From an uncultured Planctomycetales bacterium (GTDB lineage Bacteria > Omnitrophota > Gorgyraeia > Zapsychrales > Aceulaceae), in contig CAZYOA010000001.1 of assembly GCA_964648665.1 (NCBI GenBank), positions 176,128 to 240,127 of the forward strand: a stretch of 64,000 nt of DNA, written 5' to 3'. The position numbers were made by a program, and so were the translations under genes. The notes beneath the pieces are model-generated. The model ran no database searches. It worked only from the letters and a program-made list of their open reading frames with translations, and was not told the DNA's origin. The stretch's first letter is position 1. Every line of letters starts with the position of its first letter. Shown here piece by piece: positions 2,528 through 61,412 of this stretch.

Positions 2528-2629
2528 ATGTTTAAAAATAAAAGTCATATTTTAATAAAGATTATTGCTCTAGCTGTAATATTCTTCTTTACGGCTACAA
2601 GTATATGCCCTAATCAAGCCCTAGCGCAA
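2528..2629 (+). other. Predicted signal peptide of the giant ORF
   Basis: MFKNKSHILIKIIALAVIFFFTATSICPNQALAQ: basic n-region, hydrophobic core, ALA-Q cleavage-type end. Confidence 0.7.
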
Positions 2630-5600
2630 GTAGTATCAGGACTGCCTGTGCCAGGTACTATGGTTTCTTTAAGCCCGGCCTTCACCCCAGCCATTCTTCG
2701 TGGAATAAGAGTCTATCCTGACAATGCTCTTAAATTCGACTTTATCGTCGATTCTGGAGATACCGGGCTTAAAGGACCTGAGTTAAAAGATGTTTCTGAG
2801 CGTCTCATTAAGTACTTTCTAACCGCTTTAACGATTCCTGAAGACAACCTATGGGTTAACCTATCTCCCCATGAACAAGACAGAATCATTCCTGGTTCTC
2901 TAGCCGTTACAGACATGGGTACAGATATGCTCTCTCAGGACTATCTCTTAAAACAAATCACAGCTTCTTTAATCTATCCAGAAGATGAACTCGGTAAACA
3001 GTTCTGGCAAAAGATCTATAAGAAAGCCTATGAACAGTATGGAACCACTAACATCCCTGTAGATACCTTTAATAAGGTCTGGATCATGCCTGACAAGGCT
3101 GAAGTCTATGTAAAGGATGATAGAGCTTTCGTAGTTGAATCAAAACTTAAAGTTATGCTGGAAGAGGACTATCTTGCACTTGAAAATAACACAGAGTCTC
3201 AAGGAGCGAGGGATGCAGAATCTAAAACTGATAACAAGCTCGCTTCTGAAATCGTCCGTGAAATTGTTATTCCTGCTCTTGAAAAAGAAGTCAATGAAGG
3301 CAAAAACTTTGCTCAACTTAGACAAATCTATAATTCTTTAATTTTAGCGTATTGGTTTAAGAATAATTTAAAGGAATCTATCGTAAATAAAGTTTATTCT
3401 GATCAGCAAAAGATTAAGGGTATAGATGCTGAGAATGTCTCTCAAGATATTTATAAGCAATATCTTAAATCTTTTGAAAAAGGTGTCTGCGATTTTATTA
3501 AGGTTGAATACGATCAATATACGCGAAAGAACATTCCTAGAAAGTATTTCTCTGGAGGTTTTACTGGAAAACTTAAAGTTGGTGAAAGCATAGAATTTAT
3601 TGAAGCAAAAACAAGAAATGGCAGAAGAGCAGGAAGCAATCTTGTCGCTAAGTTAAAGATCGCAACGATTGTTCTTGTGACGGTAGGATTAAGTATTTTT
3701 CAGCAATCAGATGTTTTAGCCCAGAATAATGATAAAGAAAATGCCCCCCTTTCTTATAAAGACGATACTGAAAAAGATTATTGGATAAAATTAGCAAAGC
3801 AAAAATCATCTGAGGTTTTTAAAAGAGAATCTGAATTTAAAGATGCTCCCTTTAGAGAAGAGGTTCTGAAAGTTGCAGCATATATTGACAAAGCCGCGGC
3901 AATTGAAAATTTTAAGGTTATTTCAGGCTATGGTTGGGCTGATTATGGATTTGTGGAAGAAGCTTTGAAAGGTGAGAGATGGGCAGCCTACTGTGTTCTT
4001 GAAGATCCTAGCTTATTAGATAAATTCGATGACAAACAGAAAAGCCAACTCCTTGAAATCGCAGCAGATACTAGTAAAGCTGCAGCAATTTTATTTCTTT
4101 CGAATATTTCAGATTTTGGTTGGGTTGACTATGATTTTGTTAAGAAGGCGGTGGAAAATAGCGATGGGGCAGCTTATTTTTCACTTAAAGATCCAGAACG
4201 ATTTAAAGAATTTAATAAAGAACAGCGAAATGAGCTTCTTTTGATTGCTTCAAAAAAATCCCCTAGAGATGCGTATCGATTTAGGGGATTTCTTTTAAGA
4301 CTTAACAATTCTCCTTTCAATCAAGATTCTTTTAAAAATCTTGTAGACGATAATCCAGATTTATTCTTATCTAAAGCATTTTATTCAGAAGAAATGTCGT
4401 ATTTTAATATTGCTTTAAAAGACACTCCGTACAAAGAAATAATGGATAACAAAACGAATCATCTTAATTTAACTGAGGGACAAAAGACCTCAGCTGCTGT
4501 TTCCTCCATTCGCTTATGTCGCATGCTAGACATTTCTTTCAAGAATTTGCAATATTTTAGTATAAGTGTTGATGTCATTCTGGAGCTTATAGATGTTGCT
4601 TTAGAAGAGATCATATTTGGTAAAACTGATGCACAGGGAAAAGAGATTCATGTTATCAATATAGTAGGTTGGCAGTCACGTTTTAATAAGAATAAATTGG
4701 AAACATTTGAAATTTCAGCTGGAGTATTAGAGAAAAATATTCAGTCTTTTAAAGAGGGTATACATTTAGAAAGAAATGCTATTGAAGCTGTCGAAAAATC
4801 AATAGGACCGTTGAGGATTGTTTATGATGGACATGCAGGAAGAAATTATTTAAATGTGTGGAATCATTTGACATATCAAGAGATGGGAGAGGCACTTATA
4901 AAAAGAGGCAGAGGCAACATTGAAAATGTTTATTTATTAAACTTTAGCTGCCTTTCAAGAAACTTTAATGAAAATCTTAAAAGATATTTGCAAAAAGAAG
5001 GATATCCTTCACCTAAATTTGATATTTCACAAGCTAGTGAAGATGCTCTATCGTTTGGAGGTCCAAGGAATTTCTTAAAGCATATCCAAAAGCAAAGAAA
5101 AGCAAACGGAAAAGAAAAGTCTCCTGTTACATTTTGGGATATTCTTATGGGTGAGACATCTAAGGTGTTAGGAAAGCAGGATCCGTCTGCCTTCTTTTCG
5201 ATATCACCTCAGAAATTCAAAGAGGTTATCACTGAGAAATTTCAAGGTATCTTGTCAGATGATCAACTTAATAAAATTCTTGCTAAAACAGATAAACTTC
5301 CCAATGTTTCAGTACAGCTTATGAGCATCTTTGATTCTTTGACTCAAGGTAAGAAAGGGCGAGAAGTGATTTTATGGTTAATACTTCTAGGCATAATTCC
5401 GGAAATGCTAAAGCTTAAATCAGAAATAGAATTAAACGATGACTTTGACGTAGGAGATATTAGTAGGATGAGGACAGTGCTTAGTAACATTGATTTTGTA
5501 AAATCCAATTATCAAAATATATCTAGTTATGAGCTAAATGGAAAGTATTTTGATTTCGATAAAAAGGACAATGCCCCAGAGAAACTAGATGTACTGGTTG

Positions 5601-8600
5601 CGCTTGCGTTTGCTCAAAGAAAAACCTTATCTGTTTGGGCGATGGGTGATAATGGAGCAAAGCGTTATTCGTTGGTTGAGAAGGTAGAGGGCCAAGAGGA
5701 TAAGTTTGCGCAATTGGTAACTTTTCATGAAGATGTTTTGGTTGAGCGTGTTAAAAATCACAAAAAGGCCTCCAGTAATCAAGCAGCATCATCTAAAATT
5801 ACCTCTACCGGTGATATCGATCTGAACCAGATTATCAGGCCGGTAAACTTAAATGATTTTGATGAGGTTCTTGATGGGAAAGTTTCTCAAATTAAGATTG
5901 ATGATAATGGTGTGTTGCATGTTGCATATACGCCCCCAGATACTAAAGATTTAAAAATGTTGATAGTTTCTATAGATTCTCAGGAAAAAGGTATGCTTAT
6001 TGTAGAAGATAAAAGTACAGCAAAGCAATTGCTCTCAGAAAAAGATGATAACATTACGGGGTTTTTAAGTAATATAAAATATTTTGATTATGCCAAGAAG
6101 GATTCTTCTGATGAAATATTAATTATGAAAGTATTGCAAATATTGATAGATCGAGGATATTTAAATTTACCAAAAGGGAACACGTATGATAAATTTAGCA
6201 AGAATCAAAAAACTATCGATAGTTTTGATCCTAAAGTTACCTCTGGCCAATTAATCACAAGCTCAAAGATGGTTCTTCTTTTATCGAATTACTTAAAAAG
6301 TTATTCTGGTCAGGATGCAACGCTAGAAGGCTTTGTTAATGAAATAAATCAAGAATTTGCCTCTATGGCTAAAAAACTCGGAATTCAAAGGTTTGATAAT
6401 AATACTGTTGTTAATCTTTTAGAGCAAGACGAAATTGTTAATTCCAGAAAATACTTTTCTCCAGATGCTATTCGTATAATTGGACGCCTCGTCGCTAAAG
6501 GAATTCTGAGTATTAAAAAATCTCTGGATGGTACAACCCCAATGCTTGGGGGATTAACTTTTAGCGATGTTCAGCTTGATTCTTCAGAGAAATATTTGTT
6601 TTCATTTTACCATCCTACTACTGGAGACCACTATGCAGTCAACTTTGTTCCAGAGAAAGGTGATTCTAAAAAAGTTAATTTTTATATACGTGGAGTATAT
6701 CCAACAGGGCATGTTTTAATGGGTTATTCTGAAGGAAAGTTTGGCACAAAAAAAATGAACGTATTTGGTGATATCCCAGAAGAGCTAGTAAAAGCACTTA
6801 AATTTTTTCAGAAAAATATTCCTTATTTTGCGCATTTAGGCGGGAGTTCTGGTTTTCTAACAGATTTTGATAGACGTTGGAAATCGAAAGATGTGGAATT
6901 GGCGGAAGGCACAGATTACTTAAAATTTTCTAAAGAAAAATATGGAAACCCTTACGCCGAAATTAAAATTAAATATTATAAAGGGCCAAAGGCTAGAATA
7001 GAGTTCATTAGGGAAGAAAGCTATAAATGGCCGGAGGTTAGAAGAGAGCTGATTGGCAAAGAGAACAGCTTAACAGTTCAGATTTCTCCTAAACTTCCAA
7101 ATGACACAAAATCAAAAGGTGATGATATTTTCTGGAAAGAAGAATACAAATTACATTTAAAAAATATTTGGAAAAATAGAAGAAAGAACTACAAGGGAAA
7201 ACTGATTGATGTTTATGCGAGAATGTTTGATGATGGAATATTAGGAAAAACTATTTTAGAGCTTGGAGGAGGGAATGATCCGGTGTCTGGAGGATTTAAG
7301 GATGGCAAGATTGTAGTTTTGGATATGGGCATTCGAAAGCCTGTCGACAAAGACTACTACCCCAAGGCTTTATTTGTGGAGAATAATGTCGAAGATTTTA
7401 GCAATCTATCTGATGTAGGGTTAGAAGCTATTAAAGAATTTCTAGGTGCGAATGAGGGTGAGACAAAACAATCTATTTTCCATTTATTCGACACTGTGGT
7501 TATTTCAAATCTTTTTAATTATGTTGACTATAGATCCCTAGTAAAACAAGTGGCGCAAACAGTAGCGCCAGGAACAAAAATAGTTATTCAAAATCACGTA
7601 GGATTCGGAGATCCTAATTCTTTTTCGCCTGATGGGGCAAAATCCAATAAGGATATTGTTGATATTTTTGAATCTGATGATTTTGACATTAAATATATCT
7701 TTGGATTTAATGACGAAAGAAGCATAAGTTCTTCTTCTGGAACTGCCATACTCGATGAATTGCAAGAGCTCAAGGAGCTTGATTTAAAAAGCGCAAAGAA
7801 TTCTAAAGACGTATTGTATTTAGTAGCTGAAAAGAAGGACAGGGTGATGAGTTCTAATAAGAAATCAACTTTAAAAGGTAGCAAAAAGATCATTGATGTC
7901 AACTCAAGTCAAACTGCATCGTCAGTTGTCTCGAGTTCTATGAATTCTCCAGATCACGCAAGTTTCCCAGGAACGCTTAATATTGATGAGTTTGAACGAA
8001 TGACGAATCCTGAAATTCTATTTCATCAACAGATCAATGAATTCTTTGGAAGAGGCAATGATTTCGGAAATTTTGCTGGTCAGCTGATTGCGGCGCCTGC
8101 TAGAACATCAAGAACGACTCATGAGCTAGATTTAAATGGATCTTACGCAAGAAAAGCGTATTTAGAGGATACCGTTGCAGAGATCATTGACAATCTTTTT
8201 CGTGATCAAGAAAATATTTCTAGTATGAGAACAAGGGCGGATATCTCGATTCTTCGCGGACCTCAGGGTGAATTATTCTTTAAGCTCGTTGCTTTTCAAC
8301 CAGTTGTTAGTCCTGGAAGATGGCAAAAGATTGTCGGTAATTCGAAATTGTCCATATCAGAATTAAACGATTTAAAATATCGGACGAATAACAATTTAAG
8401 AGAAGGAGGAGGACGAGCTTTTCGGTTTTATGCGTGGTTGACAAGAGGTGCCGGTCCCGATGCTGAACCTCGAGGGAAAGTTCAAAAGACAGCTCTTGAG
8501 TTTTTCAGAAATAAAAGTGGCGACATGATCACGACTTTCTGGGCTGAAGTTGATCGCATTCCTAATAGTTTTAACAGGATTTCAATGGATCCAGAAAAAA

Positions 8601-9517
8601 TTTTAGATAAAGCGCAGATAAGCGGTGAGGATGAACCTGTTATTCGTGCCAAAGGTATCGATGCTTCGACTCCTCTTGGCGTAAATGGCATCAAAGGTGG
8701 TCTCGATTTTAATGCTGAAAACATCAAGAGAAAGGGTTCTAGCGCGCTTGTTAATTTAGAGCTTATTGATGTTTTTTCAACACGTCAAGAACAAAAACAG
8801 GCGGTTCGAGAGATATTAAAAATTGATAAAGAAAATTTTCCAAAATCTCAAAGGTTAAATGAAGCAGAGGTTTTTGATTATATTCGTCAAGAAGGGAAAA
8901 GAGTCCTGATCGCAATAAAAAATAATAAAGTTTTAGGTTTTGCCCTTTATTCTATAGATGCGCTTGGTTTTTCAGAAAAGAGAGAAGCTTATCTTTATAA
9001 AATAGCTTTTTCTAGCAAAAGGCAGGGTTTAGGTGTTGGAAGTCAGTTGATGGATGAGCTCATTGACGAACTTAGAAGAGGTGGAATTGGCGAGCTTACA
9101 TATATTCCTTTCAATAAGGATTCGCTTGAATGGTTTCGAAAAGGATATGTCGAAGAAAGAAAAGATTTAGTTATTGAATCGATGGGCATCGGAGAAAGGA
9201 TTGTTATAAATGAGAAGAACTCGTCTTCAATTTTAAACAAAAAAAATCTTAAAGGCGGTATCGACTTTAACGCTGAGAATATGAACATTATAACTAAAGG
9301 GGATGAAATTGATTTTAATCTTCCATTGGATCTTCAAAATATTAGCTCGAGCAGCATCGAAGGTTTTGTGCCGATTATTATTAATATTACTCCAGTGACA
9401 AATTTTATAGGTCTTTTAGGTCTAGATGATAAAGGCGATGATCTTGTTAATGTGATTAGTCAAAATAATTCGCAACAATTCCACGCCCTTGTTGCTCTTG
9501 ATCTCAAAGATGGTTAA
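2528..9517 (+). CDS. Giant 2,329-aa secreted/membrane multidomain protein of unknown function (signal peptide, internal hydrophobic helix, tandem repeats, SAM-MTase-like and GNAT modules)
   Basis: Uninterrupted 6,990-nt ORF with GGAG 5 nt upstream of the ATG. Domains were read from the translation (see sub-features and findings). Confidence 0.9.
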   Translation: MFKNKSHILIKIIALAVIFFFTATSICPNQALAQVVSGLPVPGTMVSLSPAFTPAILRGIRVYPDNALKFDFIVDSGDTGLKGPELKDVSERLIKYFLTALTIPEDNLWVNLSPHEQDRIIPGSLAVTDMGTDMLSQDYLLKQITASLIYPEDELGKQFWQKIYKKAYEQYGTTNIPVDTFNKVWIMPDKAEVYVKDDRAFVVESKLKVMLEEDYLALENNTESQGARDAESKTDNKLASEIVREIVIPALEKEVNEGKNFAQLRQIYNSLILAYWFKNNLKESIVNKVYSDQQKIKGIDAENVSQDIYKQYLKSFEKGVCDFIKVEYDQYTRKNIPRKYFSGGFTGKLKVGESIEFIEAKTRNGRRAGSNLVAKLKIATIVLVTVGLSIFQQSDVLAQNNDKENAPLSYKDDTEKDYWIKLAKQKSSEVFKRESEFKDAPFREEVLKVAAYIDKAAAIENFKVISGYGWADYGFVEEALKGERWAAYCVLEDPSLLDKFDDKQKSQLLEIAADTSKAAAILFLSNISDFGWVDYDFVKKAVENSDGAAYFSLKDPERFKEFNKEQRNELLLIASKKSPRDAYRFRGFLLRLNNSPFNQDSFKNLVDDNPDLFLSKAFYSEEMSYFNIALKDTPYKEIMDNKTNHLNLTEGQKTSAAVSSIRLCRMLDISFKNLQYFSISVDVILELIDVALEEIIFGKTDAQGKEIHVINIVGWQSRFNKNKLETFEISAGVLEKNIQSFKEGIHLERNAIEAVEKSIGPLRIVYDGHAGRNYLNVWNHLTYQEMGEALIKRGRGNIENVYLLNFSCLSRNFNENLKRYLQKEGYPSPKFDISQASEDALSFGGPRNFLKHIQKQRKANGKEKSPVTFWDILMGETSKVLGKQDPSAFFSISPQKFKEVITEKFQGILSDDQLNKILAKTDKLPNVSVQLMSIFDSLTQGKKGREVILWLILLGIIPEMLKLKSEIELNDDFDVGDISRMRTVLSNIDFVKSNYQNISSYELNGKYFDFDKKDNAPEKLDVLVALAFAQRKTLSVWAMGDNGAKRYSLVEKVEGQEDKFAQLVTFHEDVLVERVKNHKKASSNQAASSKITSTGDIDLNQIIRPVNLNDFDEVLDGKVSQIKIDDNGVLHVAYTPPDTKDLKMLIVSIDSQEKGMLIVEDKSTAKQLLSEKDDNITGFLSNIKYFDYAKKDSSDEILIMKVLQILIDRGYLNLPKGNTYDKFSKNQKTIDSFDPKVTSGQLITSSKMVLLLSNYLKSYSGQDATLEGFVNEINQEFASMAKKLGIQRFDNNTVVNLLEQDEIVNSRKYFSPDAIRIIGRLVAKGILSIKKSLDGTTPMLGGLTFSDVQLDSSEKYLFSFYHPTTGDHYAVNFVPEKGDSKKVNFYIRGVYPTGHVLMGYSEGKFGTKKMNVFGDIPEELVKALKFFQKNIPYFAHLGGSSGFLTDFDRRWKSKDVELAEGTDYLKFSKEKYGNPYAEIKIKYYKGPKARIEFIREESYKWPEVRRELIGKENSLTVQISPKLPNDTKSKGDDIFWKEEYKLHLKNIWKNRRKNYKGKLIDVYARMFDDGILGKTILELGGGNDPVSGGFKDGKIVVLDMGIRKPVDKDYYPKALFVENNVEDFSNLSDVGLEAIKEFLGANEGETKQSIFHLFDTVVISNLFNYVDYRSLVKQVAQTVAPGTKIVIQNHVGFGDPNSFSPDGAKSNKDIVDIFESDDFDIKYIFGFNDERSISSSSGTAILDELQELKELDLKSAKNSKDVLYLVAEKKDRVMSSNKKSTLKGSKKIIDVNSSQTASSVVSSSMNSPDHASFPGTLNIDEFERMTNPEILFHQQINEFFGRGNDFGNFAGQLIAAPARTSRTTHELDLNGSYARKAYLEDTVAEIIDNLFRDQENISSMRTRADISILRGPQGELFFKLVAFQPVVSPGRWQKIVGNSKLSISELNDLKYRTNNNLREGGGRAFRFYAWLTRGAGPDAEPRGKVQKTALEFFRNKSGDMITTFWAEVDRIPNSFNRISMDPEKILDKAQISGEDEPVIRAKGIDASTPLGVNGIKGGLDFNAENIKRKGSSALVNLELIDVFSTRQEQKQAVREILKIDKENFPKSQRLNEAEVFDYIRQEGKRVLIAIKNNKVLGFALYSIDALGFSEKREAYLYKIAFSSKRQGLGVGSQLMDELIDELRRGGIGELTYIPFNKDSLEWFRKGYVEERKDLVIESMGIGERIVINEKNSSSILNKKNLKGGIDFNAENMNIITKGDEIDFNLPLDLQNISSSSIEGFVPIIINITPVTNFIGLLGLDDKGDDLVNVISQNNSQQFHALVALDLKDG
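3659..3700 (+). other. Internal hydrophobic (TM or second signal-like) segment of the giant ORF
   Basis: aa 378-391 IATIVLVTVGLSIF, preceded by RRAGSNLVAKLK and followed by QQSDVLAQ (aa 399). This mimics an n-h-c signal peptide. Confidence 0.6.
3857..4231 (+). repeat. Two tandem ~62-aa protein repeats (plus a degenerate third to about 4390) inside the giant ORF
   Basis: EEVLKVAAYIDKAAAIENFKVISGYGWADYGFVEEALKGERWAAYCVLEDPSLLDKFDDKQKS vs QLLEIAADTSKAAAILFLSNISDFGWVDYDFVKKAVENSDGAAYFSLKDPERFKEFNKEQRN. Confidence 0.75.
7190..7630 (+). other. Class-I SAM-dependent methyltransferase-like module of the giant ORF
   Basis: Motif I-like ILELGGGNDP (aa 1576-1585), then KIVVLDMG (acidic end of beta-2), DTVVISNLFNYV (motif IV-like) and APGTKIVIQN. 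Confidence 0.55.
8765..9175 (+). other. GNAT-family N-acetyltransferase module of the giant ORF
   Basis: YLYKIAFSSKRQGLGVGSQLMDELIDELRRGG matches GNAT motif A (Q/R-x-x-G-x-G/A; RQGLGVG at 9020-9040). Confidence 0.75.
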
Positions 9518-46451: not shown

Positions 46452-48287
46452 ATGAAAAGAAATAAAATTGCAATTGAAGTGTTAATTTTTTCTTTAATGT
46501 TGCTGTCTTTGGCAATTAAGCATTTGAGTCCATATTTGATTCAAAATCTTTATGCAAATAATGAAATCTTTTTACTTAATTTATTTTCTGGCAATTTAGG
46601 CAAGGTTGCAGAATCTGTTGATTTTTATTTGGGTCGATCTCAGGAGGTTCTTTTTGGTCCAGTAAGCCTTATTTTTTCTGGATCAGCTCTTATTTTGTTT
46701 TGTTTAAAATATCTTGAGAGATTAACCTTTTGGAAATTTGCCGCCACACTTTTCATCTTCCTTATTATTACAAAATTTGAAATTTTATTTTTTCCACCTT
46801 ATGGCGATTCGGCAAGCGGGCCTGTCATTGAAGGAATTTGGCTTTTACATAATGATTTTAATTATGCGAAGCTGGCAGGAGAGGTTGTTTTTGTTAGAGG
46901 CGGACCGAAAGTCTACCTTTTTTCTTTATATCCGACTTATTTAGCTATTTTGATGAAAATATTTACAAATGGAAAAATGTTTGTCGCCGTGAATCATGTT
47001 CTTATCTTTGGAGCCAGTGCGATTATTCTTTCATATTTTCGTTCACTGGCTTATAAAATTTTTAATAAGCGTTTATCTGTATTGTTGACTATTTTTCTTT
47101 TATCGTTGCCTCTTGTGCAAAGTCAAATTGAACAAATTAACATGGAAATTCCTGTTCTGTTCTTTGCGATGGCATGTCTTTATTATGTAGCAAATAAGAA
47201 GATTCTTCGTGGCGCTCTTTTTGCCGGTCTTGCTATTTTTACAAAATTGTATTCAGTGTATATGGGCGGAGTTGTTTTATTTGTTGGATTATATTTGTTT
47301 TTCTTTGCAGAGAAACAAAAAGGAAATTTAAAAGTTCTAGGCTCAAGCATTCTTTCTGTTTTCTTTGCAATAGCGGGAGCACTTAGCTTGTTCTTTTTTA
47401 TGAATTTGGATGGAAGCAAGGTTGATAAGGTGGGCATGTTTCAGGGATTTTATTTAATCAAGACATTTCCTGTGACTTATTTTTATACGTTTAGTTTTAT
47501 CGCATTAATTGTTTTTGCAATTTTATTTATTCGAAAGCAGAATAAGAGTGTTTTAAGATCTTTGAATGAGTTTATACTTTCTCATTTCGAAGTTATGGTT
47601 ATTTTTGTTTGCTCGATGGGGTGGTTTGTTTTATTCTTAAACTCAGGCTGGATTCCTCCACGATATACATTGCTTTTGTTGCCATCGTTGATTCTTGGCG
47701 CTTTTTATGTTGCAAACAATTTAATTCAAAATAAGAAATTATTAGAGCAGGGCGTAATGGCTCTAATCTTTATTGGATTTTTGTGTTCCTACGGACTTCC
47801 TTATGAGCCTGTTAAAATTCAGGATCATGCGATTACAGAACGAAGCCTTGAATATAGAAATGATGTTTTGTTGCACATGAAACTTGCGAAATTGCTTGAA
47901 GAAAAGTATTCAAACTTAATTATTGGTGCGCCATTTACGTTAGCTCAAGTATTAGCATTTCCAGAGATGGGATTTACTTCCAAGAAATTAGATATTATGA
48001 TTTATCTATATCCGTGCACGTATGGGGGAGTTCGAAATTTTGAAGGATTTGAAAAGATTAACCCAAAAAATATTGTTTGGGTTGGCGTTAAGACTCCGTT
48101 TATGTTTAGCGAGCATGTGCCGTATGGTCTGCATGATTTAATTATTGAAGAGCTGGAAGTTGGAAATAAATATGCAAATTTATTTGTCGGTGGATTTTCT
48201 GTAAATGCATTGTATCATTATGGTCAATCTTTGGTGCGTCAAATGGAAGCGCATGGTATCAAGAAACCAGAACTTAAAGCTTATTAA
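46452..48287 (+). CDS. Large polytopic membrane protein with C-terminal soluble domain (possible GT-C-fold glycosyltransferase)
   Basis: 611 aa, at least 12 hydrophobic helices, then a ~150-aa hydrophilic tail. Loop FFPPYGDSASGPVIEG and LYPTYLAIL are weakly GT-C-like. Context is next to the GtrB-like GT2. Confidence 0.45.
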   Translation: MKRNKIAIEVLIFSLMLLSLAIKHLSPYLIQNLYANNEIFLLNLFSGNLGKVAESVDFYLGRSQEVLFGPVSLIFSGSALILFCLKYLERLTFWKFAATLFIFLIITKFEILFFPPYGDSASGPVIEGIWLLHNDFNYAKLAGEVVFVRGGPKVYLFSLYPTYLAILMKIFTNGKMFVAVNHVLIFGASAIILSYFRSLAYKIFNKRLSVLLTIFLLSLPLVQSQIEQINMEIPVLFFAMACLYYVANKKILRGALFAGLAIFTKLYSVYMGGVVLFVGLYLFFFAEKQKGNLKVLGSSILSVFFAIAGALSLFFFMNLDGSKVDKVGMFQGFYLIKTFPVTYFYTFSFIALIVFAILFIRKQNKSVLRSLNEFILSHFEVMVIFVCSMGWFVLFLNSGWIPPRYTLLLLPSLILGAFYVANNLIQNKKLLEQGVMALIFIGFLCSYGLPYEPVKIQDHAITERSLEYRNDVLLHMKLAKLLEEKYSNLIIGAPFTLAQVLAFPEMGFTSKKLDIMIYLYPCTYGGVRNFEGFEKINPKNIVWVGVKTPFMFSEHVPYGLHDLIIEELEVGNKYANLFVGGFSVNALYHYGQSLVRQMEAHGIKKPELKAY

Positions 48288-49645
48288 GATTTTTCCTGCC
48301 AAAAAGAGTAAAAACTAACAAATAAAGCAGTTGGAAGAAGATAAAGAATGATGCGGCTTGCTGTGCATTCAAGGCGCCAGGTTAGGTCAAAGTGTGCCGT
48401 TGTGAGGTAAACATAAAGAAGGATAAAACCAAAAAGAACAAAGAAGATGCTAAAAATTTTATTTTCATTTTGAATAAGATTTTTTGGTTTAAATATCCCA
48501 AGTAGAAAAATAAATATCCAAATAAAGTTCCACTTCTTATCCGTAAGCTCTGATCCGTAAAAGCCAACAGTTGTTAATAACCCGTTTAGATTGCAAAATT
48601 CCAGATTCTTTGTTAAAGGATTAAATAAAACTTCTCGAGTGCTTGGAGCAAGAAAGATTTTAAAAATTATAGTTGCTGCACCTGTGCAGGCAAATCCGAT
48701 TAATAAAAATTTAATAATTTTAAGTCTTTTATCAGGATCAATATTTTTATTTAAAAACAAATATCCAATGGTAAGTCCAATCAGAAGGAAAAGCATGACG
48801 ATGCCTTCATTTTTTGCAAACGGCATTAATCCCAGAAATAATCCAGTCAGTAGAGAAAATCTGTGATTCTTTGTTTTCATTGTCAGAGTTAGCAGGATGA
48901 CGCTGGAAAGAAGAAAATAAGCTAAAACGATATCTGCATATTGAGTTGTGCTCCAGAAAATATAAGAAGGTGTTGTCATTAATAAAACAGACGCTAATAA
49001 GGCAACCCATTTTTTTATAAATTGGGAGAGGCCGCTGTAGATGAGAAGTCCGCATGTAGCCGAAAAAATTATAGAAGTTAACGATGCTGCTTTGACGATA
49101 CCACTTTGAAATACTGAGTAAATCCATGTGTTAATTAACGGAAGCAAGATTGGGTAGCTTGGTTGCGTGTGCCAATGAGCTTTTGCAAAATCTGCCCAAC
49201 GTTCAGAGCCGAAAACAAGAAATTTGGCTTTCATGTTGTAGAGTCCCCAAGCATCCCAACCACCAGATGGATATTGTTGAGACAAGATGGAGATGCCGAT
49301 AATCGCAACTCCCCAAGCAATAAATGCTGTTATCCAGAATTTATTATTAATTTTTGGTAATTGATTTTCAGTTTCAATCTTGTTTTCTGGCGAAGAGAAA
49401 TAGAAAATATTTGTAATAAATAAACTTAAAAGGGTGGCAATATTAATTGTTAAAATTGCGGTTTGATTAAATTCCCTAAAAATAAAGAATGAATAAAATG
49501 TGATAGATGCTGATATTCCAAGTCCTAAACCCAGAGATAGGCAGAGAATTAGTAGGCCTGAAATTTGAGGTTGATTTCTAAGAATAAGGCGAATAGTAAA
49601 GAATCCGATAAAAAGAGATATCAGATATGTGAGGAGATTAATCAT
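48284..49645 (-). CDS. Polytopic membrane protein, GT-C-fold (ArnT/PMT-like) glycosyltransferase candidate
   Basis: 453 aa, about 12 TM. The first large loop GGWDAWGLY...HTQPSYPILLPL resembles the acidic-loop plus hPPL motif of GT39/GT83 enzymes. Confidence 0.5.
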   Translation of the reverse strand: MINLLTYLISLFIGFFTIRLILRNQPQISGLLILCLSLGLGLGISASITFYSFFIFREFNQTAILTINIATLLSLFITNIFYFSSPENKIETENQLPKINNKFWITAFIAWGVAIIGISILSQQYPSGGWDAWGLYNMKAKFLVFGSERWADFAKAHWHTQPSYPILLPLINTWIYSVFQSGIVKAASLTSIIFSATCGLLIYSGLSQFIKKWVALLASVLLMTTPSYIFWSTTQYADIVLAYFLLSSVILLTLTMKTKNHRFSLLTGLFLGLMPFAKNEGIVMLFLLIGLTIGYLFLNKNIDPDKRLKIIKFLLIGFACTGAATIIFKIFLAPSTREVLFNPLTKNLEFCNLNGLLTTVGFYGSELTDKKWNFIWIFIFLLGIFKPKNLIQNENKIFSIFFVLFGFILLYVYLTTAHFDLTWRLECTASRIILYLLPTALFVSFYSFWQEKS

Positions 49646-50192: not shown

Positions 50193-50266
50193 GCGCCTGT
50201 AGCTCAGTTGGATAGAGCACTAGTCTTCGGAACTAGGTGTCGGGGGTTCGAATCCACCCAGGCGCG
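50193..50266 (+). tRNA. tRNA-Arg (anticodon TCG)
   Basis: Manual cloverleaf: acceptor GCGCCTG/CAGGCGC, D-arm GCTC-AGTTGGATA-GAGC, anticodon arm CTAGT-CTTCGGA-ACTAG, T-arm GGGGG-TTCGAAT-CCACC. Confidence 0.9.
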
Positions 50267-56004: not shown

Positions 56005-57261
56005 ATGAAAAATCGAAGTATTTGTTTTTTGATTGGCACTCTTTTTATTTCTTCTATTTTTCTTCAAAATGTTTTTGCCCAACTAAACATAGATCCTAAT
56101 TTAGAGAAAAATGAAGTTTATCAAAGTTATTTAGACTTCTTTGAAGAAATTTATCTGACGATGGATCAAAAGTATTATTATCCAATTCGTAGAAACGATT
56201 TTGATCGTTTCTTGAAGAAGTTTGATTCGGAAATCTACACAAAGATCGACGACAGAAAGAATTTTGATGATTTCATTTCGATGCGCTCGGGAGCGTTGCT
56301 TGTTGATTTCTTAAAGACAAAAGAAGATATCTTTTCAGCTTTATTTCCTCCTCAGGCTGTTGATGATTTTAAGGATGAAGTGTTGGGCAGAAAATCTGAT
56401 CTTGGCATTGAAGGGGAGTTGACAGAGCAAGGGTATCGTGTAACTTTTATTGAGCCAAGGTCTGATGCGTTCTTAAAAGGGTTACGAGTAAATGATGTTT
56501 TAATTTCAATTGATGGCAAAAAAGTTTTGCGTTTAACAGTTGATAAAATTATCGAAAGATTAACTCCTGAAATTAGTAAGCGAGTAAAAATTCGATATTT
56601 TGATACTCAAAATCATAAAAAAACAATTGTTGTTGTATCCAAAGAATATTTTAAGCAAACTGTATTTCCAGTAGCAACATATTTGCCAAATGTTTATTGT
56701 CTTTTGATTGAGCGTTTTAATCGAAAGACATCTGAAGATTTGTCGCGCTACTTATTTATGATTAATCAGCAAGGGTCAACAGGATTAATTTTAGATTTAA
56801 GGGGTAATCCTGGAGGACCTCCGTTAGCTGCGCGTGAAATTCTTTCATTTTTTCTTGAACCAAGTCCTGAATTTGTGTATTTCTTAAGAAAAGATGATCA
56901 CCGCAATACGTTAGATGTTCCTGAGGTTCCTTTGCCGTATCGATATTCTGGGCCAATTGCAATTCTTGTTGATGAAAAAAGTGGAAGTGCTTCTGAACTT
57001 TTTTCTGGAGTTATGCAAAAGCAAAATAGAGCAGTTTTACTTGGAAAGCGAACAGCAGGACAAGTTTTCTTAAAGAGTATGTTTAATTTGGATAATGATT
57101 CTATGCTTGTTTTAGTTACGGCTAGAGGATATTTCCCGAATGGGGAGGCATTTGATTTTGATGGTTTAATGCCACAAGTTCTTGTCGACAACAAAGGTGT
57201 CGATTTATTGTATTTTGCAGCTGGTTTTTTACAGGCAAATCTTAGTAAAAATATATTTTAA
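56005..57261 (+). CDS. S41-family (C-terminal processing / tail-specific) peptidase homolog with PDZ domain
   Basis: Signal peptide; PDZ-like GIEGE...VNDVLISIDGKKV; LILDLRGNPGG; Ser block KSGSASELFSG. Confidence 0.75.
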   Translation: MKNRSICFLIGTLFISSIFLQNVFAQLNIDPNLEKNEVYQSYLDFFEEIYLTMDQKYYYPIRRNDFDRFLKKFDSEIYTKIDDRKNFDDFISMRSGALLVDFLKTKEDIFSALFPPQAVDDFKDEVLGRKSDLGIEGELTEQGYRVTFIEPRSDAFLKGLRVNDVLISIDGKKVLRLTVDKIIERLTPEISKRVKIRYFDTQNHKKTIVVVSKEYFKQTVFPVATYLPNVYCLLIERFNRKTSEDLSRYLFMINQQGSTGLILDLRGNPGGPPLAAREILSFFLEPSPEFVYFLRKDDHRNTLDVPEVPLPYRYSGPIAILVDEKSGSASELFSGVMQKQNRAVLLGKRTAGQVFLKSMFNLDNDSMLVLVTARGYFPNGEAFDFDGLMPQVLVDNKGVDLLYFAAGFLQANLSKNIF

Positions 57262-59801: not shown

Positions 59802-60680
59802 ATGGCATACCACACACTACTCGGATTTAAAAAAGAACCTTTTTCAACCAGCCCAGATCCCCAATTCTTTTATCTTACCAAAGAACACGATATGGCATTA
59901 ACAAGCATTTTAATTGAGCTTCGTTTACGGCGCGGACTCACTGTTATTCTTGGCGATATTGGAACTGGTAAAACAACGCTTTCTAGAAAACTTGTTCAAG
60001 AGCTTAAAGATCGCGGAAATATGATTTTTCATATGATTTTAAATCCTGATTTTGAGACAGAAGAGCAATTTTTAACAACTCTTCTAAGAAACTTTGACAT
60101 TGAAATGAAAAGTGATTCTGTTTCAGATATGGCGGGAATCTTAGAGTTAAGAGACTCTGTCGAGAGGTTTCTTATTCAAAAGGCTGAGCAAAAACAAACG
60201 ATTATCTTGATTGTTGATGAAGCGCAAAAATTAAACTTAGTTACACTTGAAGTCTTACGTGTTCTTTTAAATTTTGAAACAAATGAATACAAGCTTATCC
60301 AACTCGTTCTTTTAGGTCAGCTTGAACTTTATTCGAAAATTGTTTCGATGCCAAATTTTATTGATCGTGTAAGTTTTAAATATACGTTAAACCCTCTTGA
60401 TCTCGAGGAGACAAAGGGGCTTATTCATTATCGAATACAAAAAGCTGGATATGAAGGTCACATGGAGCTTTTTAACAATGAAGCTGTCAGCGAGATTTAC
60501 AATTACTCGCGTGGATATCCTCGACACATTACAATGTTATGCCATAAAGTTTTAAAAGAATTAATTTTACAGAATCGAGAAGTTGTTGATCGCGATATTG
60601 TTTTGAGTGTTTTAGAGAAAGAGCGTCGTGTCGGGTGGGGGCGTGCTGAAAAATTCCACCGAGGAAATCCTACATTTTAA
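59802..60680 (+). CDS. ExeA/GspA/MshM-like AAA ATPase
   Basis: FGFKKEPFSTSPDPQFFY N-terminus, Walker A GDIGTGKTT, Walker B IVDEAQ, LVLLGQLEL. No C-terminal peptidoglycan-binding domain. Confidence 0.8.
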   Translation: MAYHTLLGFKKEPFSTSPDPQFFYLTKEHDMALTSILIELRLRRGLTVILGDIGTGKTTLSRKLVQELKDRGNMIFHMILNPDFETEEQFLTTLLRNFDIEMKSDSVSDMAGILELRDSVERFLIQKAEQKQTIILIVDEAQKLNLVTLEVLRVLLNFETNEYKLIQLVLLGQLELYSKIVSMPNFIDRVSFKYTLNPLDLEETKGLIHYRIQKAGYEGHMELFNNEAVSEIYNYSRGYPRHITMLCHKVLKELILQNREVVDRDIVLSVLEKERRVGWGRAEKFHRGNPTF

Positions 60681-60692
60681 TGTGCAAAGAAA

Positions 60693-61412
60693 ATGTCTAA
60701 AAAAGAAACCGCAGAACAAAAACTTTTAAAGATTATTGAAGACGGAGCTAAAGAGGAAAATCAGTCTGCATCAGCTGATCAGTCTCAGGATTCTCAGCAA
60801 ACCGAACACGTTGCTCAAGAAATTGCTTCTGCAGTAAAAGGATCAGGAGCTTCTGGTTCTTCAATCATTTCTGATTTTTCTGAAAAACTTAGAGGGTTTA
60901 ATTTTAGTGTACCAAATTTGAAATCAATTGGTCTTAAGGAGGCAAATCTTGTCTTGACGGCAATGATTATTGGTTCAGTTCTTTTTCTTGGGATTACTTA
61001 TCAGGGTGAAAATAAGAAATTATCAGCAAATTTAAATTTTGTAAAAAATATTACAAAATCAAAATTTGGTTCAGGGTCTGGAATTATGCCAAGCTATGAG
61101 AAGCTGACATCATTTTTAGAGACAATTTTAAGACGAAATATTTTTAGACCTTATGAGCAGAAAGAATCTGAAGTTGCGAGCAATGCTCCCATTGGAACTC
61201 AGAGAGTAGCTGCTAAGCTTGAGAGCTTAAAGCTAGTCGGTATTTCCTGGTTGGATATACCAGGCTCAGCATCTGCGATGGTCGAGAATGCTGAAGGGAT
61301 GACATTTTTTTTAAAAGAAGGTGAAAATATTAATCAAGTAAAAATTAAGAAGATTTACGCTGATCGTGTTATTTTTAGTTTTGAAGATCAAGAAATGGAA
61401 ATTCGTTTATGA
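60693..61412 (+). CDS. Bitopic protein with PilP/GspC-HR-like C-terminal domain (secretin-associated candidate)
   Basis: Acidic/Ser-rich N-terminus, one TM (LVLTAMIIGSVLFLGITY). C-terminus LKLVGISW...ASAMVENAEGMTFFLKEGENINQVKIKKIYADRVIFSF is typical of the PilP/GspC beta-domain pattern. Confidence 0.45.
   Translation: MSKKETAEQKLLKIIEDGAKEENQSASADQSQDSQQTEHVAQEIASAVKGSGASGSSIISDFSEKLRGFNFSVPNLKSIGLKEANLVLTAMIIGSVLFLGITYQGENKKLSANLNFVKNITKSKFGSGSGIMPSYEKLTSFLETILRRNIFRPYEQKESEVASNAPIGTQRVAAKLESLKLVGISWLDIPGSASAMVENAEGMTFFLKEGENINQVKIKKIYADRVIFSFEDQEMEIRL

What the first reader, a model, noticed from the sequence alone, without database searches (positions are those of the whole stretch)
8693..9517. 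Duplicated KGG(L/I)DFNAEN motif brackets the GNAT module and precedes a distinctive C-terminal tail
KGGLDFNAENI (aa 2056-2066, nt 8693-8725) and KGGIDFNAENM (aa 2242-2252, nt 9251-9283) flank the GNAT domain. Of the 9 identical residues, 5 use different synonymous codons (ggt/ggc, gat/gac, aat/aac, gaa/gag, aac/aat). The peptide has therefore been conserved by selection rather than by recent DNA duplication. A degenerate third copy, GDIDLNQ (aa 1095-1101, nt 5810-5830), also follows a Ser-rich linker. The last copy leads into ITKGDEIDFNLPLDLQNISSSSIEGFVPIIINITPVTNFIGLLGL, a hydrophobic beta-rich tail. The motif may mark module boundaries, processing or recognition sites, or a C-terminal sorting/secretion signal. 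I cannot name a described domain for it.
Basis: seen in the sequence. Interest (0 to 1): 0.55.

Follow-up and report, generated by a model that had tools for sequence, protein, structure and literature searches.

The report
Omnitrophota C-terminal tag and insertion scar
The second copy of the motif starts an undescribed ~75-residue C-terminal tag that ends thousands of modular proteins in the phylum Omnitrophota, and the first copy is most likely a scar left when an acetyltransferase cassette was inserted just upstream of that tag.

Summary
KGGLDFNAENI (nt 8693) and KGGIDFNAENM (nt 9251) flank a GNAT domain near the end of a 2329-aa ORF, with 5 synonymous codon differences.

The terminal copy opens a conserved C-terminal module: GGID(F/L)N, then 39-40 residues, then P(V/I)IINITPVxN(L/F)PxLLGL, then an acidic tail. 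An exhaustive profile search found 4908 representative proteins. In all 150 listed, and in all 86 genomic occurrences, the module sits at the very end of proteins of 80-4969 aa. Nearly all the genomes are Omnitrophota, several genes each.

Most carriers also share a Sec signal peptide and a highly conserved ~310-aa N-terminal domain. No Pfam, NCBIfam, PDB or searchable paper describes either part. AlphaFold predicts the module as extended, not globular. It behaves like a cargo-independent C-terminal address or docking tag. Its partner is unknown.

The internal copy is not a general boundary motif. Comparable internal half-modules turned up in only one other of 660 family sequences scanned. Two near-identical metagenome alleles (L081, L084) differ only by a 237-aa M23 peptidase cassette inserted at the module start. 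That cassette is flanked by a duplicated SSTGGI with different codons, the same anatomy as here.

The inference of selection on the internal copy is not.

The parts
2528..9517 (+). Whole gene: a 2329-aa modular protein. It is 100% identical, from M45 on, to the public metagenome protein P0007.
2528..2629 (+). Sec-type signal peptide (aa 1-34). It has a basic n-region, a hydrophobic core and the site ...NQALA|Q.
   Evidence: Read from the sequence and the hydropathy scan. The same ...(S/A)YA|Q type of N-terminus occurs in about 29 of 37 complete family ORFs.
2630..3559 (+). Conserved N-terminal domain of the family (aa 35-344). It contains WVNLSP and ends in the invariant PRKYFSGG.
   Evidence: At least 1273 homologues with E<=1e-5, the best 120 listed 52-66% identical, and no Pfam domain covering this region. 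Invariant columns. AlphaFold pLDDT 75, pTM 0.75, mixed alpha/beta. No PDB fold or sequence match.
3653..3709 (+). Hydrophobic segment (aa 376-394) after the N-domain, with a basic N-flank and a ...VLAQ C-flank. It could be a transmembrane helix or a second signal-peptide-like element. Only a subset of family members have it.
5810..5830 (+). GDIDLNQ after a Ser-rich linker: possibly an older, degraded junction scar.
   Evidence: Pattern hit. Not detected by the half-module HMM. TSTGDIDFN recurs in P0011/L002, with no flank similarity at BLASTP E <= 1e-5.
7184..7594 (+). Weak SAM-methyltransferase-like cargo region (aa 1553-1689), below the Pfam threshold.
   Evidence: Methyltransf_23, E 0.015, 15.4 bits against a cut-off of 27
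8693..8725 (+). Internal copy KGGLDFNAENI: a truncated start of the C-terminal module, read here as a junction scar. The second half of the module is absent.
   Evidence: 3.5 bits against the generic half-module HMM; shuffle maximum 2.4. Analogous scars.
8816..9145 (+). GNAT acetyltransferase cassette (aa 2097-2206).
   Evidence: Acetyltransf_1, E 1.3e-11; RimI-like, below cut-off
9221..9439 (+). C-terminal module (aa 2232-2304). It comprises KGGIDFNAENM (nt 9251-9283), a 39-residue spacer, and the hydrophobic core GFVPIIINITPVTNFIGLLGL (nt 9362-9424).
   Evidence: Profile hit at 100 bits. Family consensus and spacing. AlphaFold model extended, pTM 0.20.
9440..9517 (+). Hydrophilic, acidic tail (25 aa) plus the stop codon.
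   Evidence: Family tails run from 0 to 85 aa, mostly 7-52, are mostly acidic, and 45% end in h-[ST]-x-h.

Best explanation
There are two layers.

(1) The terminal KGGIDFNAENM is the first conserved block of a C-terminal module of about 75 residues. The module reads GGID(F/L)N, then a fixed 39-40-residue spacer, then P(V/I)IINITPVxN(L/F)PxLLGL, then an acidic tail that often ends in h-S-x-L(N). It closes nearly every member of a very large protein family restricted to Omnitrophota. The chassis of that family is a Sec signal peptide, a conserved ~310-aa N-terminal domain, variable enzyme or repeat cassettes, and the C-terminal module. The module is not a globular domain on its own.

I propose that it is a cargo-independent address or docking tag. 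After Sec export, its extended, beta-prone hydrophobic strand would be captured by a common partner. That partner could be a dedicated sorting or anchoring machinery, or the family's own N-domain. Capture would route or hold the variable cassettes at the cell envelope or surface.

(2) The internal KGGLDFNAENI is a vestige of a module start, left when the GNAT cassette was joined in immediately upstream of the module. The boundary between cargo and module is where cassettes are gained and lost, and the event can duplicate the first 6-20 residues of the module.

Shown: the strictly C-terminal position, the abundance, the phylum restriction, conservation among old paralogues, the absence of an autonomous fold, the absence of any described model, and a natural cassette insertion/deletion at the junction with a duplicated motif.

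Inferred: the targeting or docking function, the partner, the compartment, and the direction and age of the GNAT event.
For: Position and abundance:
- A profile search of 1.84 billion representative proteins found 4908 hits at E<=1e-3 and 1583 at E<=1e-10. All 150 listed carry the module at the end of proteins of 80-4969 aa.
- The hydrophobic core lies 18-104 aa (mostly 26-71) from the C-terminus, and the GGID-to-core spacing is 39 in 117 of 147 proteins and 40 in 23.
- In 80 genome loci plus the window, all 86 modules end 1-49 aa before a stop codon.

Taxonomy and copy number:
- The 80 loci are Omnitrophota MAGs or coarsely labelled 'Planctomycetales' MAGs, apart from one labelled only 'uncultured bacterium' and one 'Lysobacterales' contig. 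A single restrictive search pattern found 2-5 loci per genome, and some genes are in tandem arrays.
- Paralogous modules within one genome are only 35-54% identical in protein and 55-65% in DNA, apart from one closer pair in each of two sets (74% and 65% aa). The core positions are therefore held by selection.

Chassis:
- About 29 of 37 complete module ORFs have a signal peptide and the N-domain.
- All 7 apparent exceptions abut or overlap an upstream ORF on the same strand. Two of those upstream ORFs carry the N-domain.

Cargo and fold:
- Cargo is diverse: GNAT, methyltransferase, M23 peptidase, and in N-domain relatives HAD, protein kinase and HEAT. Our middle region has almost no homologues in the other family members.
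- AlphaFold with an 82-sequence alignment gives pTM 0.20 and essentially no secondary structure, with locally confident extended segments.

No described match:
- No Pfam or NCBIfam family is hit by more than one of the 82 members, and the query segment has no hit. There is no PDB sequence match and no literature hit.

Scar model:
- L081 and L084 are the same locus, 99.8-99.9% identical on both sides. They differ only by a 711-nt Peptidase_M23 cassette inserted right after ...SSTGGI. In L081 SSTGGI is present on both sides of the cassette with different codons.
- P0021 has an independent internal half-module that matches its own terminal copy.
- Internal G[GD][ILV][DN][FLIM]N is enriched in the family, 8 observed against 0.5 in shuffles.
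Against: - No partner or machinery was identified. Flanking genes of the 80 loci show no recurrent accessory gene, and the neighbours in the window are housekeeping genes.
- Much of the cargo (GNAT, SAM methyltransferase, kinase, HAD) uses cytoplasmic cofactors. That sits uneasily with a Sec-exported, envelope-located protein.
- Our protein and a minority of relatives have an extra hydrophobic segment after the N-domain, so the compartment of the C-terminus is uncertain.
- No orthologue with the GNAT cassette and the internal copy was found, other than the identical P0007. Conservation or decay of the internal copy could therefore not be measured.
- The recurrence of TSTGDID(F/L)N and of internal GGID in Ser-rich linkers could mean that these internal motifs have a function rather than being inert scars.
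Confidence: 0.55

Rival explanations
1. The GGID motif is a functional processing or recognition site that recurs at cassette boundaries. A protease, for example a double-glycine (C39-type) peptidase, would cut after GG. That would release individual enzymes such as the GNAT from a polyprotein and remove the C-terminal tag.
For: The motif starts with an invariant GG. Internal G[GD]ID(F/L)N strings are enriched in Ser-rich linkers of family proteins (8 against 0.5 expected) and recur with flanks that show no similarity at BLASTP E <= 1e-5. Two papers report that C39 peptidase domains are common in long Omnitrophota proteins, and they suggest polyprotein cleavage (10.1101/2023.11.21.568195; 10.64898/2026.06.07.730766).
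Against: Internal half-modules are rare. Above 8 bits, only P0021 appears among 660 family sequences totalling 427,000 residues, and our internal copy scores 3.5 bits. The retained length varies from 6 to about 18 residues. The six residues upstream of GG show no conservation. From my own knowledge, double-glycine leaders are recognised through conserved upstream positions. No C39 domain was seen in this protein or among the window ORFs that were scanned, which were not all of them.
Confidence: 0.15
2. The N-domain and the C-module are two halves of one structural unit, a split chassis. The C-terminal strands would dock back onto the protein's own N-terminal domain. The variable cargo would then be a giant loop inserted at a GG hinge, and the module would not be an address for separate machinery.
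For: The N-domain and C-module co-occur in about 80% or more of complete ORFs, and the exceptions look like split genes. The conserved N-block ends exactly at the invariant PRKYFSGG, and the C-block begins exactly at GGID. Short N+C proteins with only about 100-150 aa between the two exist (P0327, P0310). An N-domain-only ORF is followed 22 nt later by cargo ORFs. The module alone is predicted to be extended, as expected for a segment that folds on a partner.
Against: The N-domain model already reaches pTM 0.75 without the module. No cargo-less protein with SGG fused directly to IDLN was seen.
Confidence: 0.2
3. The hydrophobic stretch GFVPIIINITPVTNFIGLLGL is a C-terminal transmembrane or re-entrant anchor, making this a tail-anchored protein. 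On this reading the GGID block is merely a juxtamembrane linker.
For: The mean Kyte-Doolittle hydropathy is 1.7 over 19 residues, comparable with the signal peptide. The segment is flagged as hydrophobic in several relatives.
Against: Both prolines bracketing the core strand (P..I..I.P) are invariant and the Asn nearly so, and a Thr and a third Pro are common in the consensus. This pattern suits a beta-strand rather than a helix. AlphaFold predicts no helix there. The tail that follows is acidic and mostly 7-52 aa long, not a short basic cluster.
Confidence: 0.07
4. The duplication is a chance or low-complexity similarity with no biological meaning.
For: The generic half-module profile gives the internal copy only 3.5 bits.
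Against: The match has 9 of 11 identities, against a maximum of 8 in 100 shuffles. The copy matches the clade-specific KGGIDFNAENM consensus of Aceula-type modules. The pattern occurs only in this ORF within the window. The same anatomy is seen in L081 and P0021.
Confidence: 0.03

Closest known systems
Type IX secretion C-terminal domain (T9SS CTD; Por_Secre_tail, TIGR04183) of Bacteroidota
   Same: Both are phylum-restricted C-terminal extensions of about 70-100 aa. Both sit on many paralogous, Sec-signal-bearing proteins with unrelated cargo and with many copies per genome. Both lie strictly at the C-terminus.
   Different: The T9SS CTD is a compact Ig-like 3+4 beta-sandwich (PMC11285876 abstract). 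This module is predicted to be extended, with pTM 0.20. It has no HMM match, occurs in a different phylum, and is coupled to a conserved N-terminal domain, which T9SS cargo lacks.
PEP-CTERM/exosortase, LPXTG/sortase and GlyGly-CTERM/rhombosortase sorting signals
   Same: Each is a short conserved motif plus a hydrophobic stretch at the extreme C-terminus of many otherwise unrelated exported proteins in a genome.
   Different: From my own knowledge, those signals are tripartite: a motif, a transmembrane helix, then a short basic cluster at the very end. Here the hydrophobic stretch is rich in Pro, Asn and Thr, the tail is acidic and mostly 7-52 aa long, and the conserved region spans about 65 residues. 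No NCBIfam sorting-signal model matches.
Giant T1SS adhesins with an N-terminal retention module and a C-terminal secretion signal (LapA/MpIBP type)
   Same: Both have a bookend architecture: a conserved N-terminal module, a long variable middle, and a conserved, uncleaved-looking, unstructured C-terminal signal with an acidic character.
   Different: From my own knowledge, T1SS substrates lack Sec signal peptides and carry tandem GGxGxD RTX repeats. Here there is a classical signal peptide and a single GGID block, and no RTX or T1SS model matches.
Polymorphic toxin systems with a demarcation motif (VENN in CdiA, PxxxxDPxGL in Rhs)
   Same: A short conserved peptide marks the border between a conserved chassis and interchangeable cassettes, and recombination at that border swaps the cassettes. 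The L081/L084 polymorphism shows cassette gain or loss at the GGI junction.
   Different: In those systems the variable cassette is the C-terminal tip. Here the variable cassettes are internal and the C-terminal end is the conserved part. No immunity genes or toxin trafficking domains were seen.
Long multi-enzyme proteins of Omnitrophota ('Archaeovorins' and related; 10.1101/2023.11.21.568195, 10.64898/2026.06.07.730766)
   Same: Both occur in the same phylum. Both combine signal peptides or transmembrane segments with cytoplasmic-type enzyme domains (GNAT, methyltransferase, HAD, HEAT, HATPase) in one polypeptide.
   Different: Keyword look-ups in those papers turned up no description of a shared N-terminal domain or C-terminal module. 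I did not test whether the giant proteins carry them.

Membership tests
GNAT acetyltransferase (the domain between the two copies) | Match to the Pfam Acetyltransf_1 profile above the gathering threshold | tested here: met
   aa 2097-2206, E 1.3e-11, 45.2 bits against a cut-off of 20.7
T9SS C-terminal domain | Match to CTD profile HMMs (Por_Secre_tail / TIGR04183) | tested here: not met
   The query and the 82 module-bearing sequences show no recurrent Pfam or NCBIfam hit, and no CTD model among the isolated hits.
T9SS C-terminal domain | Compact Ig-like beta-sandwich fold | tested here: not met
   AlphaFold with 82 sequences gives pTM 0.20 and no strands assigned.
T9SS C-terminal domain | Extreme C-terminal position on Sec-exported proteins with diverse cargo | tested here: met
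PEP-CTERM / sortase-type tripartite sorting signals | Signature motif, then a transmembrane helix, then a short basic cluster at the very C-terminus | tested here: not met
   The tail is acidic and mostly 7-52 aa long. The hydrophobic stretch is rich in Pro, Asn and Thr and is not predicted to be helical. No NCBIfam model matches.
PEP-CTERM / sortase-type tripartite sorting signals | Co-occurrence with a cognate exosortase, sortase or rhombosortase in the genome | not testable with these tools
   Whole genomes could not be scanned. One Exosortase_EpsH gene was seen 7 kb from a family gene, which is anecdotal.
T1SS / RTX C-terminal secretion signal | No N-terminal Sec signal; tandem GGxGxD nonapeptide repeats upstream of the signal | tested here: not met
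   A classical signal peptide is present in most members. There is a single GGID block and no RTX profile hit.
Dockerin | Match to the Pfam Dockerin_1 profile (duplicated Ca-binding loop-helix) | tested here: not met
   No Pfam hit.
Omnitrophota N-domain/C-module family (defined here) | C-terminal module: GGID(F/L)N, 39-40 aa, P(V/I)IIxIxP...LLG, ending within about 50 aa of the stop codon | tested here: met
   100 bits to the family profile, 25 aa from the stop; spacing 39
Omnitrophota N-domain/C-module family (defined here) | Sec signal peptide plus the conserved N-terminal domain (WVNLSP ... PRKYFSGG) | tested here: met

The most novel reading that the evidence does not exclude
The conserved N-terminal domain and the C-terminal module could be the two ends of one ancestral unit that was split at a GG hinge (...PRKYFSGG | GGIDLN...). 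Omnitrophota would then use this split chassis as a phylum-specific display or secretion scaffold. Arbitrary enzyme cassettes would be spliced into it and exchanged by recombination at the GGID junction, giving a modular cassette system for surface or prey-directed enzymes with its own, still unknown, recognition machinery.
Probability: 0.2. Interest if true: 0.8.

Novelty: new variant of a known kind. Interest (0 to 1): 0.62.

Why it matters
Omnitrophota are widespread, ultra-small bacteria that are largely uncultured. Some are predatory or host-dependent, and they are noted for very long multi-enzyme proteins whose targeting and processing are unexplained (10.1101/2023.11.21.568195; 10.64898/2026.06.07.730766).

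A cargo-independent C-terminal tag, present on thousands of their proteins and paired with an equally conserved N-terminal domain, gives that problem a concrete handle.
- It defines which proteins share a common fate.
- It provides a profile for annotating them, since they are currently all labelled 'hypothetical'.
- It offers a bait for finding the recognition machinery.

The L081/L084 polymorphism also shows how these modular proteins grow and shrink in natural populations, one cassette at a time, at a defined junction.

Tried and rejected
- Known domains. Pfam and NCBIfam scans of the protein, its tail and 82 module-bearing sequences found nothing for the module. PDB sequence searches with the module and N-domain profiles found nothing.
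- Conserved accessory gene. I clustered all non-family ORFs from the 80 loci. The only large clusters were antisense shadow ORFs inside the conserved N-domain coding region and further family genes.
- Orthologues with the GNAT and the internal copy. The metagenome scan returned only other module-bearing genes, and the only full match is the identical P0007. Selection on the internal copy could not be measured.
- Gene conversion between paralogues as the cause of motif conservation. I rejected this because modules within one genome are mostly 55-65% identical in DNA (one pair 77%).
- A class of signal-peptide-less module proteins (about 20% of complete ORFs). This largely dissolved, because all seven genomic cases abut or overlap an upstream ORF on the same strand.
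- A universal transmembrane helix after the N-domain. I rejected this because only a minority of members have one.
- Literature. Searches for the peptide strings and for Omnitrophota sorting signals or C-terminal domains found no description.
Full report
**Observation**

The window encodes a 2329-aa ORF at 2528..9517 on the + strand. They bracket a Pfam GNAT domain (aa 2097-2206, E 1.3e-11).

The 9-of-11 match exceeds every one of 100 shuffles, whose maximum was 8. The pattern G[GD][ILV]D[FLIM]N occurs three times in this ORF and nowhere else in the six-frame translation of the window. The only other Pfam signal in the protein is a sub-threshold methyltransferase match.

**What the terminal copy is**

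A word-index search with the last 96 residues found a handful of short metagenome proteins. They share GGIDFN, then about 40 residues, then GF/ILP(V/I)IINITPVTNFxxLLGL.

A profile of these was searched exhaustively against 1.84 billion representative proteins. It gave 4908 hits at E<=1e-3 and 1583 at E<=1e-10. In all 150 listed hits the match lies at the extreme C-terminus, in proteins from 80 to 4969 aa.

The anatomy is regular.
- The distance from GG(I/L/V/M)(D/N) to the P(V/I)(V/I)x-x-x-x-P core is 39 residues in 117 proteins and 40 in 23. A few proteins carry an insert (L086).
- The consensus is GGIDLNPalLDLQIKRDGnGVPLPl..QpIe.mnIeGFvPVIINITPVTNLPLLLGL.
- A hydrophilic, mostly acidic tail follows (0-85 aa, mostly 7-52). 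In 45% of cases it ends in a small h-[ST]-x-h motif, for example ...EELSRL or ...EEISALN.

**Distribution**

A scan of one genome per GTDB species returned 80 loci. They are Omnitrophota MAGs or coarsely labelled 'uncultured Planctomycetales' MAGs, apart from one labelled only 'uncultured bacterium' and one 7-kb 'Lysobacterales' contig. The best match is Candidatus Aceula meridiana, an Omnitrophota genus.

The single restrictive peptide pattern used for the scan already found 2-5 loci per genome. A profile search of the six-frame ORFs of these loci found 86 modules, every one ending 1-49 aa before a stop codon. Tandem arrays of such genes occur in L034, L071 and L033.

Paralogous modules within one genome are only 35-54% identical in protein and 55-65% in DNA, apart from one closer pair in each of two sets (74% and 65% aa). 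The invariant positions (GGI, P..I..I.P, LG) are therefore held by purifying selection on old paralogues, not by recent duplication or gene conversion.

**The chassis**

Most full-length carriers begin with a classical Sec signal peptide (...(S/A)YA|Q). A strongly conserved domain follows, with the pattern LNLPxPGTMVxLSxxFTPAxxKGIxIxPxNPLxFDFIVDxGD...WVNLSPYEKDRI...PRKYFSGG. Our protein has it at aa 35-344.

A search with this domain found at least 1273 proteins at E<=1e-5. The best 120 listed were 52-66% identical. All are annotated as hypothetical, mostly from Omnitrophota, and none has a Pfam domain covering this region.

AlphaFold models the N-domain with confidence (pLDDT 75, pTM 0.75) as a mixed alpha/beta fold with three long beta-hairpins. 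It has no significant PDB fold or sequence relative.

Of 37 complete module ORFs in the genome loci, about 29 have the signal peptide and N-domain. All seven exceptions abut or overlap an upstream ORF on the same strand. Two of those upstream ORFs carry the N-domain and two run off the locus. The exceptions therefore look like split or frameshifted genes rather than a separate class.

The region between the two ends is highly variable. Outside aa 1-450 and 2200-2329 our protein has almost no homologues among the other family members. Cargo seen in relatives includes methyltransferase, HAD, protein kinase, HEAT repeats, HATPase and M23 peptidase.

**Is the module a described domain or a fold?**

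- No Pfam or NCBIfam model matches it in the query. None is hit by more than one of the 82 module-bearing sequences, and those isolated hits are to unrelated families.
- No PDB sequence matches its profile.
- Full-text searches for the peptide strings, and for Omnitrophota with sorting signals or C-terminal domains, found no description. Keyword look-ups in the two papers on long Omnitrophota proteins and the Ace Lake MAG paper turned up no mention of it either.
- AlphaFold with an 82-sequence alignment predicts an extended chain with almost no secondary structure (pTM 0.20). Confidence is moderate (70-86) only locally, over the conserved blocks.

This is what one expects of a linear segment that acquires structure on a partner. 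It argues against both a T9SS-type beta-sandwich and a transmembrane helix.

**The internal copy**

A generic profile of the first half of the module scores the internal copy at only 3.5 bits (shuffle maximum 2.4), and it does not detect GDIDLNQ at all. The internal copy matches the clade-specific (Aceula-type) consensus KGGIDFNAENMNVTTKGDEIDFN, and the similarity fades after about 11-25 residues. The second half of the module is absent.

Internal half-modules are rare. Among 660 family sequences (427,000 residues) only P0021 has one above 8 bits, and it too resembles its own terminal copy: GGIDLNPNNLEMQT against GGIDFNPNNLEMQT.

The decisive comparison came from the metagenome scan. Loci L081 and L084 come from two samples and are the same locus. 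They are 99.8% identical over 2322 nt upstream and 99.9% identical over 3180 nt that run through the module and downstream. They differ only by a 711-nt insertion in L081, placed immediately after the codons for ...SSTGGI.

The inserted 237 aa contain a Peptidase_M23 domain (E 2e-7, above threshold). In L081 the peptide SSTGGI stands on both sides of the cassette and is encoded differently (ACC GGC GGC ATT against ACC GGT GGT ATT).

This is the anatomy of our protein in miniature: module start, cassette, complete module, with synonymous differences between the copies. Two conclusions follow.
- Cassettes are gained or lost exactly at the boundary between cargo and module, and the event can duplicate the beginning of the module.
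- Synonymous differences between the copies need not mean age or selection. They appear even in an event recent enough to be polymorphic, presumably because the two copies derive from different paralogues.

I therefore read KGGLDFNAENI as a junction scar of the GNAT cassette.

The third copy may be an older scar. The string TSTGDID(F/L)N in a Ser/Thr-rich linker recurs in an Aceula lacicola protein (P0011/L002), and BLASTP found no similarity between the flanks at E <= 1e-5. P0012 has two internal GGID strings in such a linker. Internal G[GD][ILV][DN][FLIM]N strings are enriched overall, 8 observed against 0.5 in shuffles. This same enrichment is also the best evidence for the rival view that internal copies are functional sites.

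**Mechanism**

The module has several properties in common with known C-terminal address tags such as the T9SS CTD and PEP-CTERM.
- It is strictly C-terminal.
- It is independent of cargo.
- It is present on many paralogues per genome.
- It is confined to one phylum.
- It is conserved among old paralogues.
- It is mostly attached to Sec-exported proteins.

My best reading (confidence about 0.55) is that it is such a tag. Its extended hydrophobic strand would be captured by a common partner that routes or anchors the variable cassettes at the envelope.

Which partner is unknown. No accessory gene recurs next to these genes. The gene's immediate neighbours are housekeeping genes: pgsA, pgpA, BaxI, cinA, the rib operon and nusB. 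Further downstream the window carries fab genes, ligA, cca, truB, ribF and the dcw cluster.

An attractive alternative (about 0.2) is that the partner is the family's own N-domain. The conserved N-block ends exactly at the invariant ...PRKYFSGG, and the C-block begins exactly at GGID. Short N+C proteins exist. An N-domain-only ORF is followed 22 nt later by cargo ORFs.

Three weaknesses remain.
- Much of the cargo needs cytoplasmic cofactors (acetyl-CoA, SAM, ATP).
- Our protein has an additional hydrophobic, signal-peptide-like segment at aa 376-394, which only a minority of relatives share. The side of the membrane on which the C-terminus ends up is therefore not settled.
- No experiment bears on any of this.

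**Comparison with known systems**

The module works most like a T9SS CTD or an exosortase-type signal, but it fails the defining tests of both: profile match, beta-sandwich fold, and the motif / transmembrane helix / basic-tail architecture.

It shares the N-module / variable middle / C-signal layout of T1SS giant adhesins. Unlike them it has a Sec signal peptide and no RTX repeats.

Its junction behaviour recalls the demarcation motifs of polymorphic toxins (VENN, PxxxxDPxGL). Here, however, the variable part is internal.

It belongs to the same phenomenon as the long multi-enzyme Omnitrophota proteins described recently. Keyword look-ups in those papers found no description of shared terminal elements.

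**Verdict**

The internal copy is best explained as an insertion scar, not as a selected functional site. The module and the N-domain form a large, apparently undescribed, Omnitrophota-specific family. I classify it as a new variant of a known kind (C-terminal targeting or docking tags), with interest 0.62.

Noticed in passing
window 2630-3559 (aa 35-344 of the ORF): A highly conserved N-terminal domain (WVNLSP ... PRKYFSGG) is shared by at least 1273 Omnitrophota proteins, the best 120 listed 52-66% identical. It has no Pfam model. AlphaFold gives a confident mixed alpha/beta fold (pTM 0.75) with no PDB relative. It is as undescribed as the C-terminal module.
   Followed up: partly
L081:3001-3240 and L084:3001-3171 (metagenome contigs Ga0222628_1000033 and Ga0207996_1000122): This is the same locus in two samples, 99.8-99.9% identical on both sides. 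The only difference is a 711-nt Peptidase_M23 cassette at the start of the C-module, flanked by a duplicated SSTGGI. It is a population-level cassette insertion/deletion.
   Followed up: yes
Family proteins in general (P0021, P0083, P0149 and others); not prominent in the window ORF: The linker motif (A/S)SSP(V/M/I/L) is about 12-fold enriched inside family proteins (90 observed against 7.5 in shuffles). It may be an inter-cassette linker or a modification site.
   Followed up: no
window 3653-3709 (aa 376-394): A second signal-peptide-like segment follows the N-domain: a basic flank, a 14-residue hydrophobic core, and ...VLAQ. P0026, P0019, P0038 and P0097 have the same at the equivalent position, and P0109 has a hydrophobic segment further downstream. 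Most relatives lack it. It makes the topology ambiguous and could mark an old fusion of two exported proteins.
   Followed up: partly
window 59802-63022: A cluster resembling type II secretion lies about 50 kb downstream of the gene: an AAA_22 (ExeA-like) ATPase, a weak GspC-like protein, and a secretin (Secretin, Secretin_N, STN). Papers report T2SS/T4P-like loci next to giant Omnitrophota genes.
   Followed up: no
window 56005-57261: A Peptidase_S41 (C-terminal processing protease family) gene. It is a generic candidate for acting on C-terminal tails, and no link was tested.
   Followed up: no
L022, L047, L004, L049, L040, L009, L069: Module-bearing ORFs that lack a signal peptide all abut or overlap an upstream ORF on the same strand, sometimes in chains of 3-4 overlapping ORFs. 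These may be frameshifted or split family genes, assembly errors, pseudogenes or real splits.
   Followed up: partly
JGI sample 3300050821, 246,841-bp contig (context of P0335; L089 is a shorter copy): An N-domain-only ORF (347 aa, ending ...RKYFSGGV) is followed 22 nt later by 886-aa (deaminase-like) and 1471-aa ORFs. An Exosortase_EpsH gene lies about 7 kb upstream. DNA for the long contig was not available.
   Followed up: no
L086:3001-3546: This is a variant module in which the two conserved halves (GGIDFNAENMNVEI ... IEGLVPVILNIVP) are separated by a much longer spacer than the usual 39-40 residues (the core begins about 66 residues after GGID). The halves can therefore tolerate an insertion.
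   Followed up: no
L034 (three consecutive genes), L071 and L033 (two each), L012 (convergent pair): Family genes often sit in tandem arrays, which would favour fusion and cassette exchange between neighbours.
   Followed up: no
window 46452-48287 (+) and 48284-49645 (-): A 611-aa ORF has no Pfam match at E <= 1e-5. Next to it is a PMT_2-type (dolichyl-phosphate-mannose-like) glycosyltransferase. A tRNA gene lies at 50193-50266.
   Followed up: no
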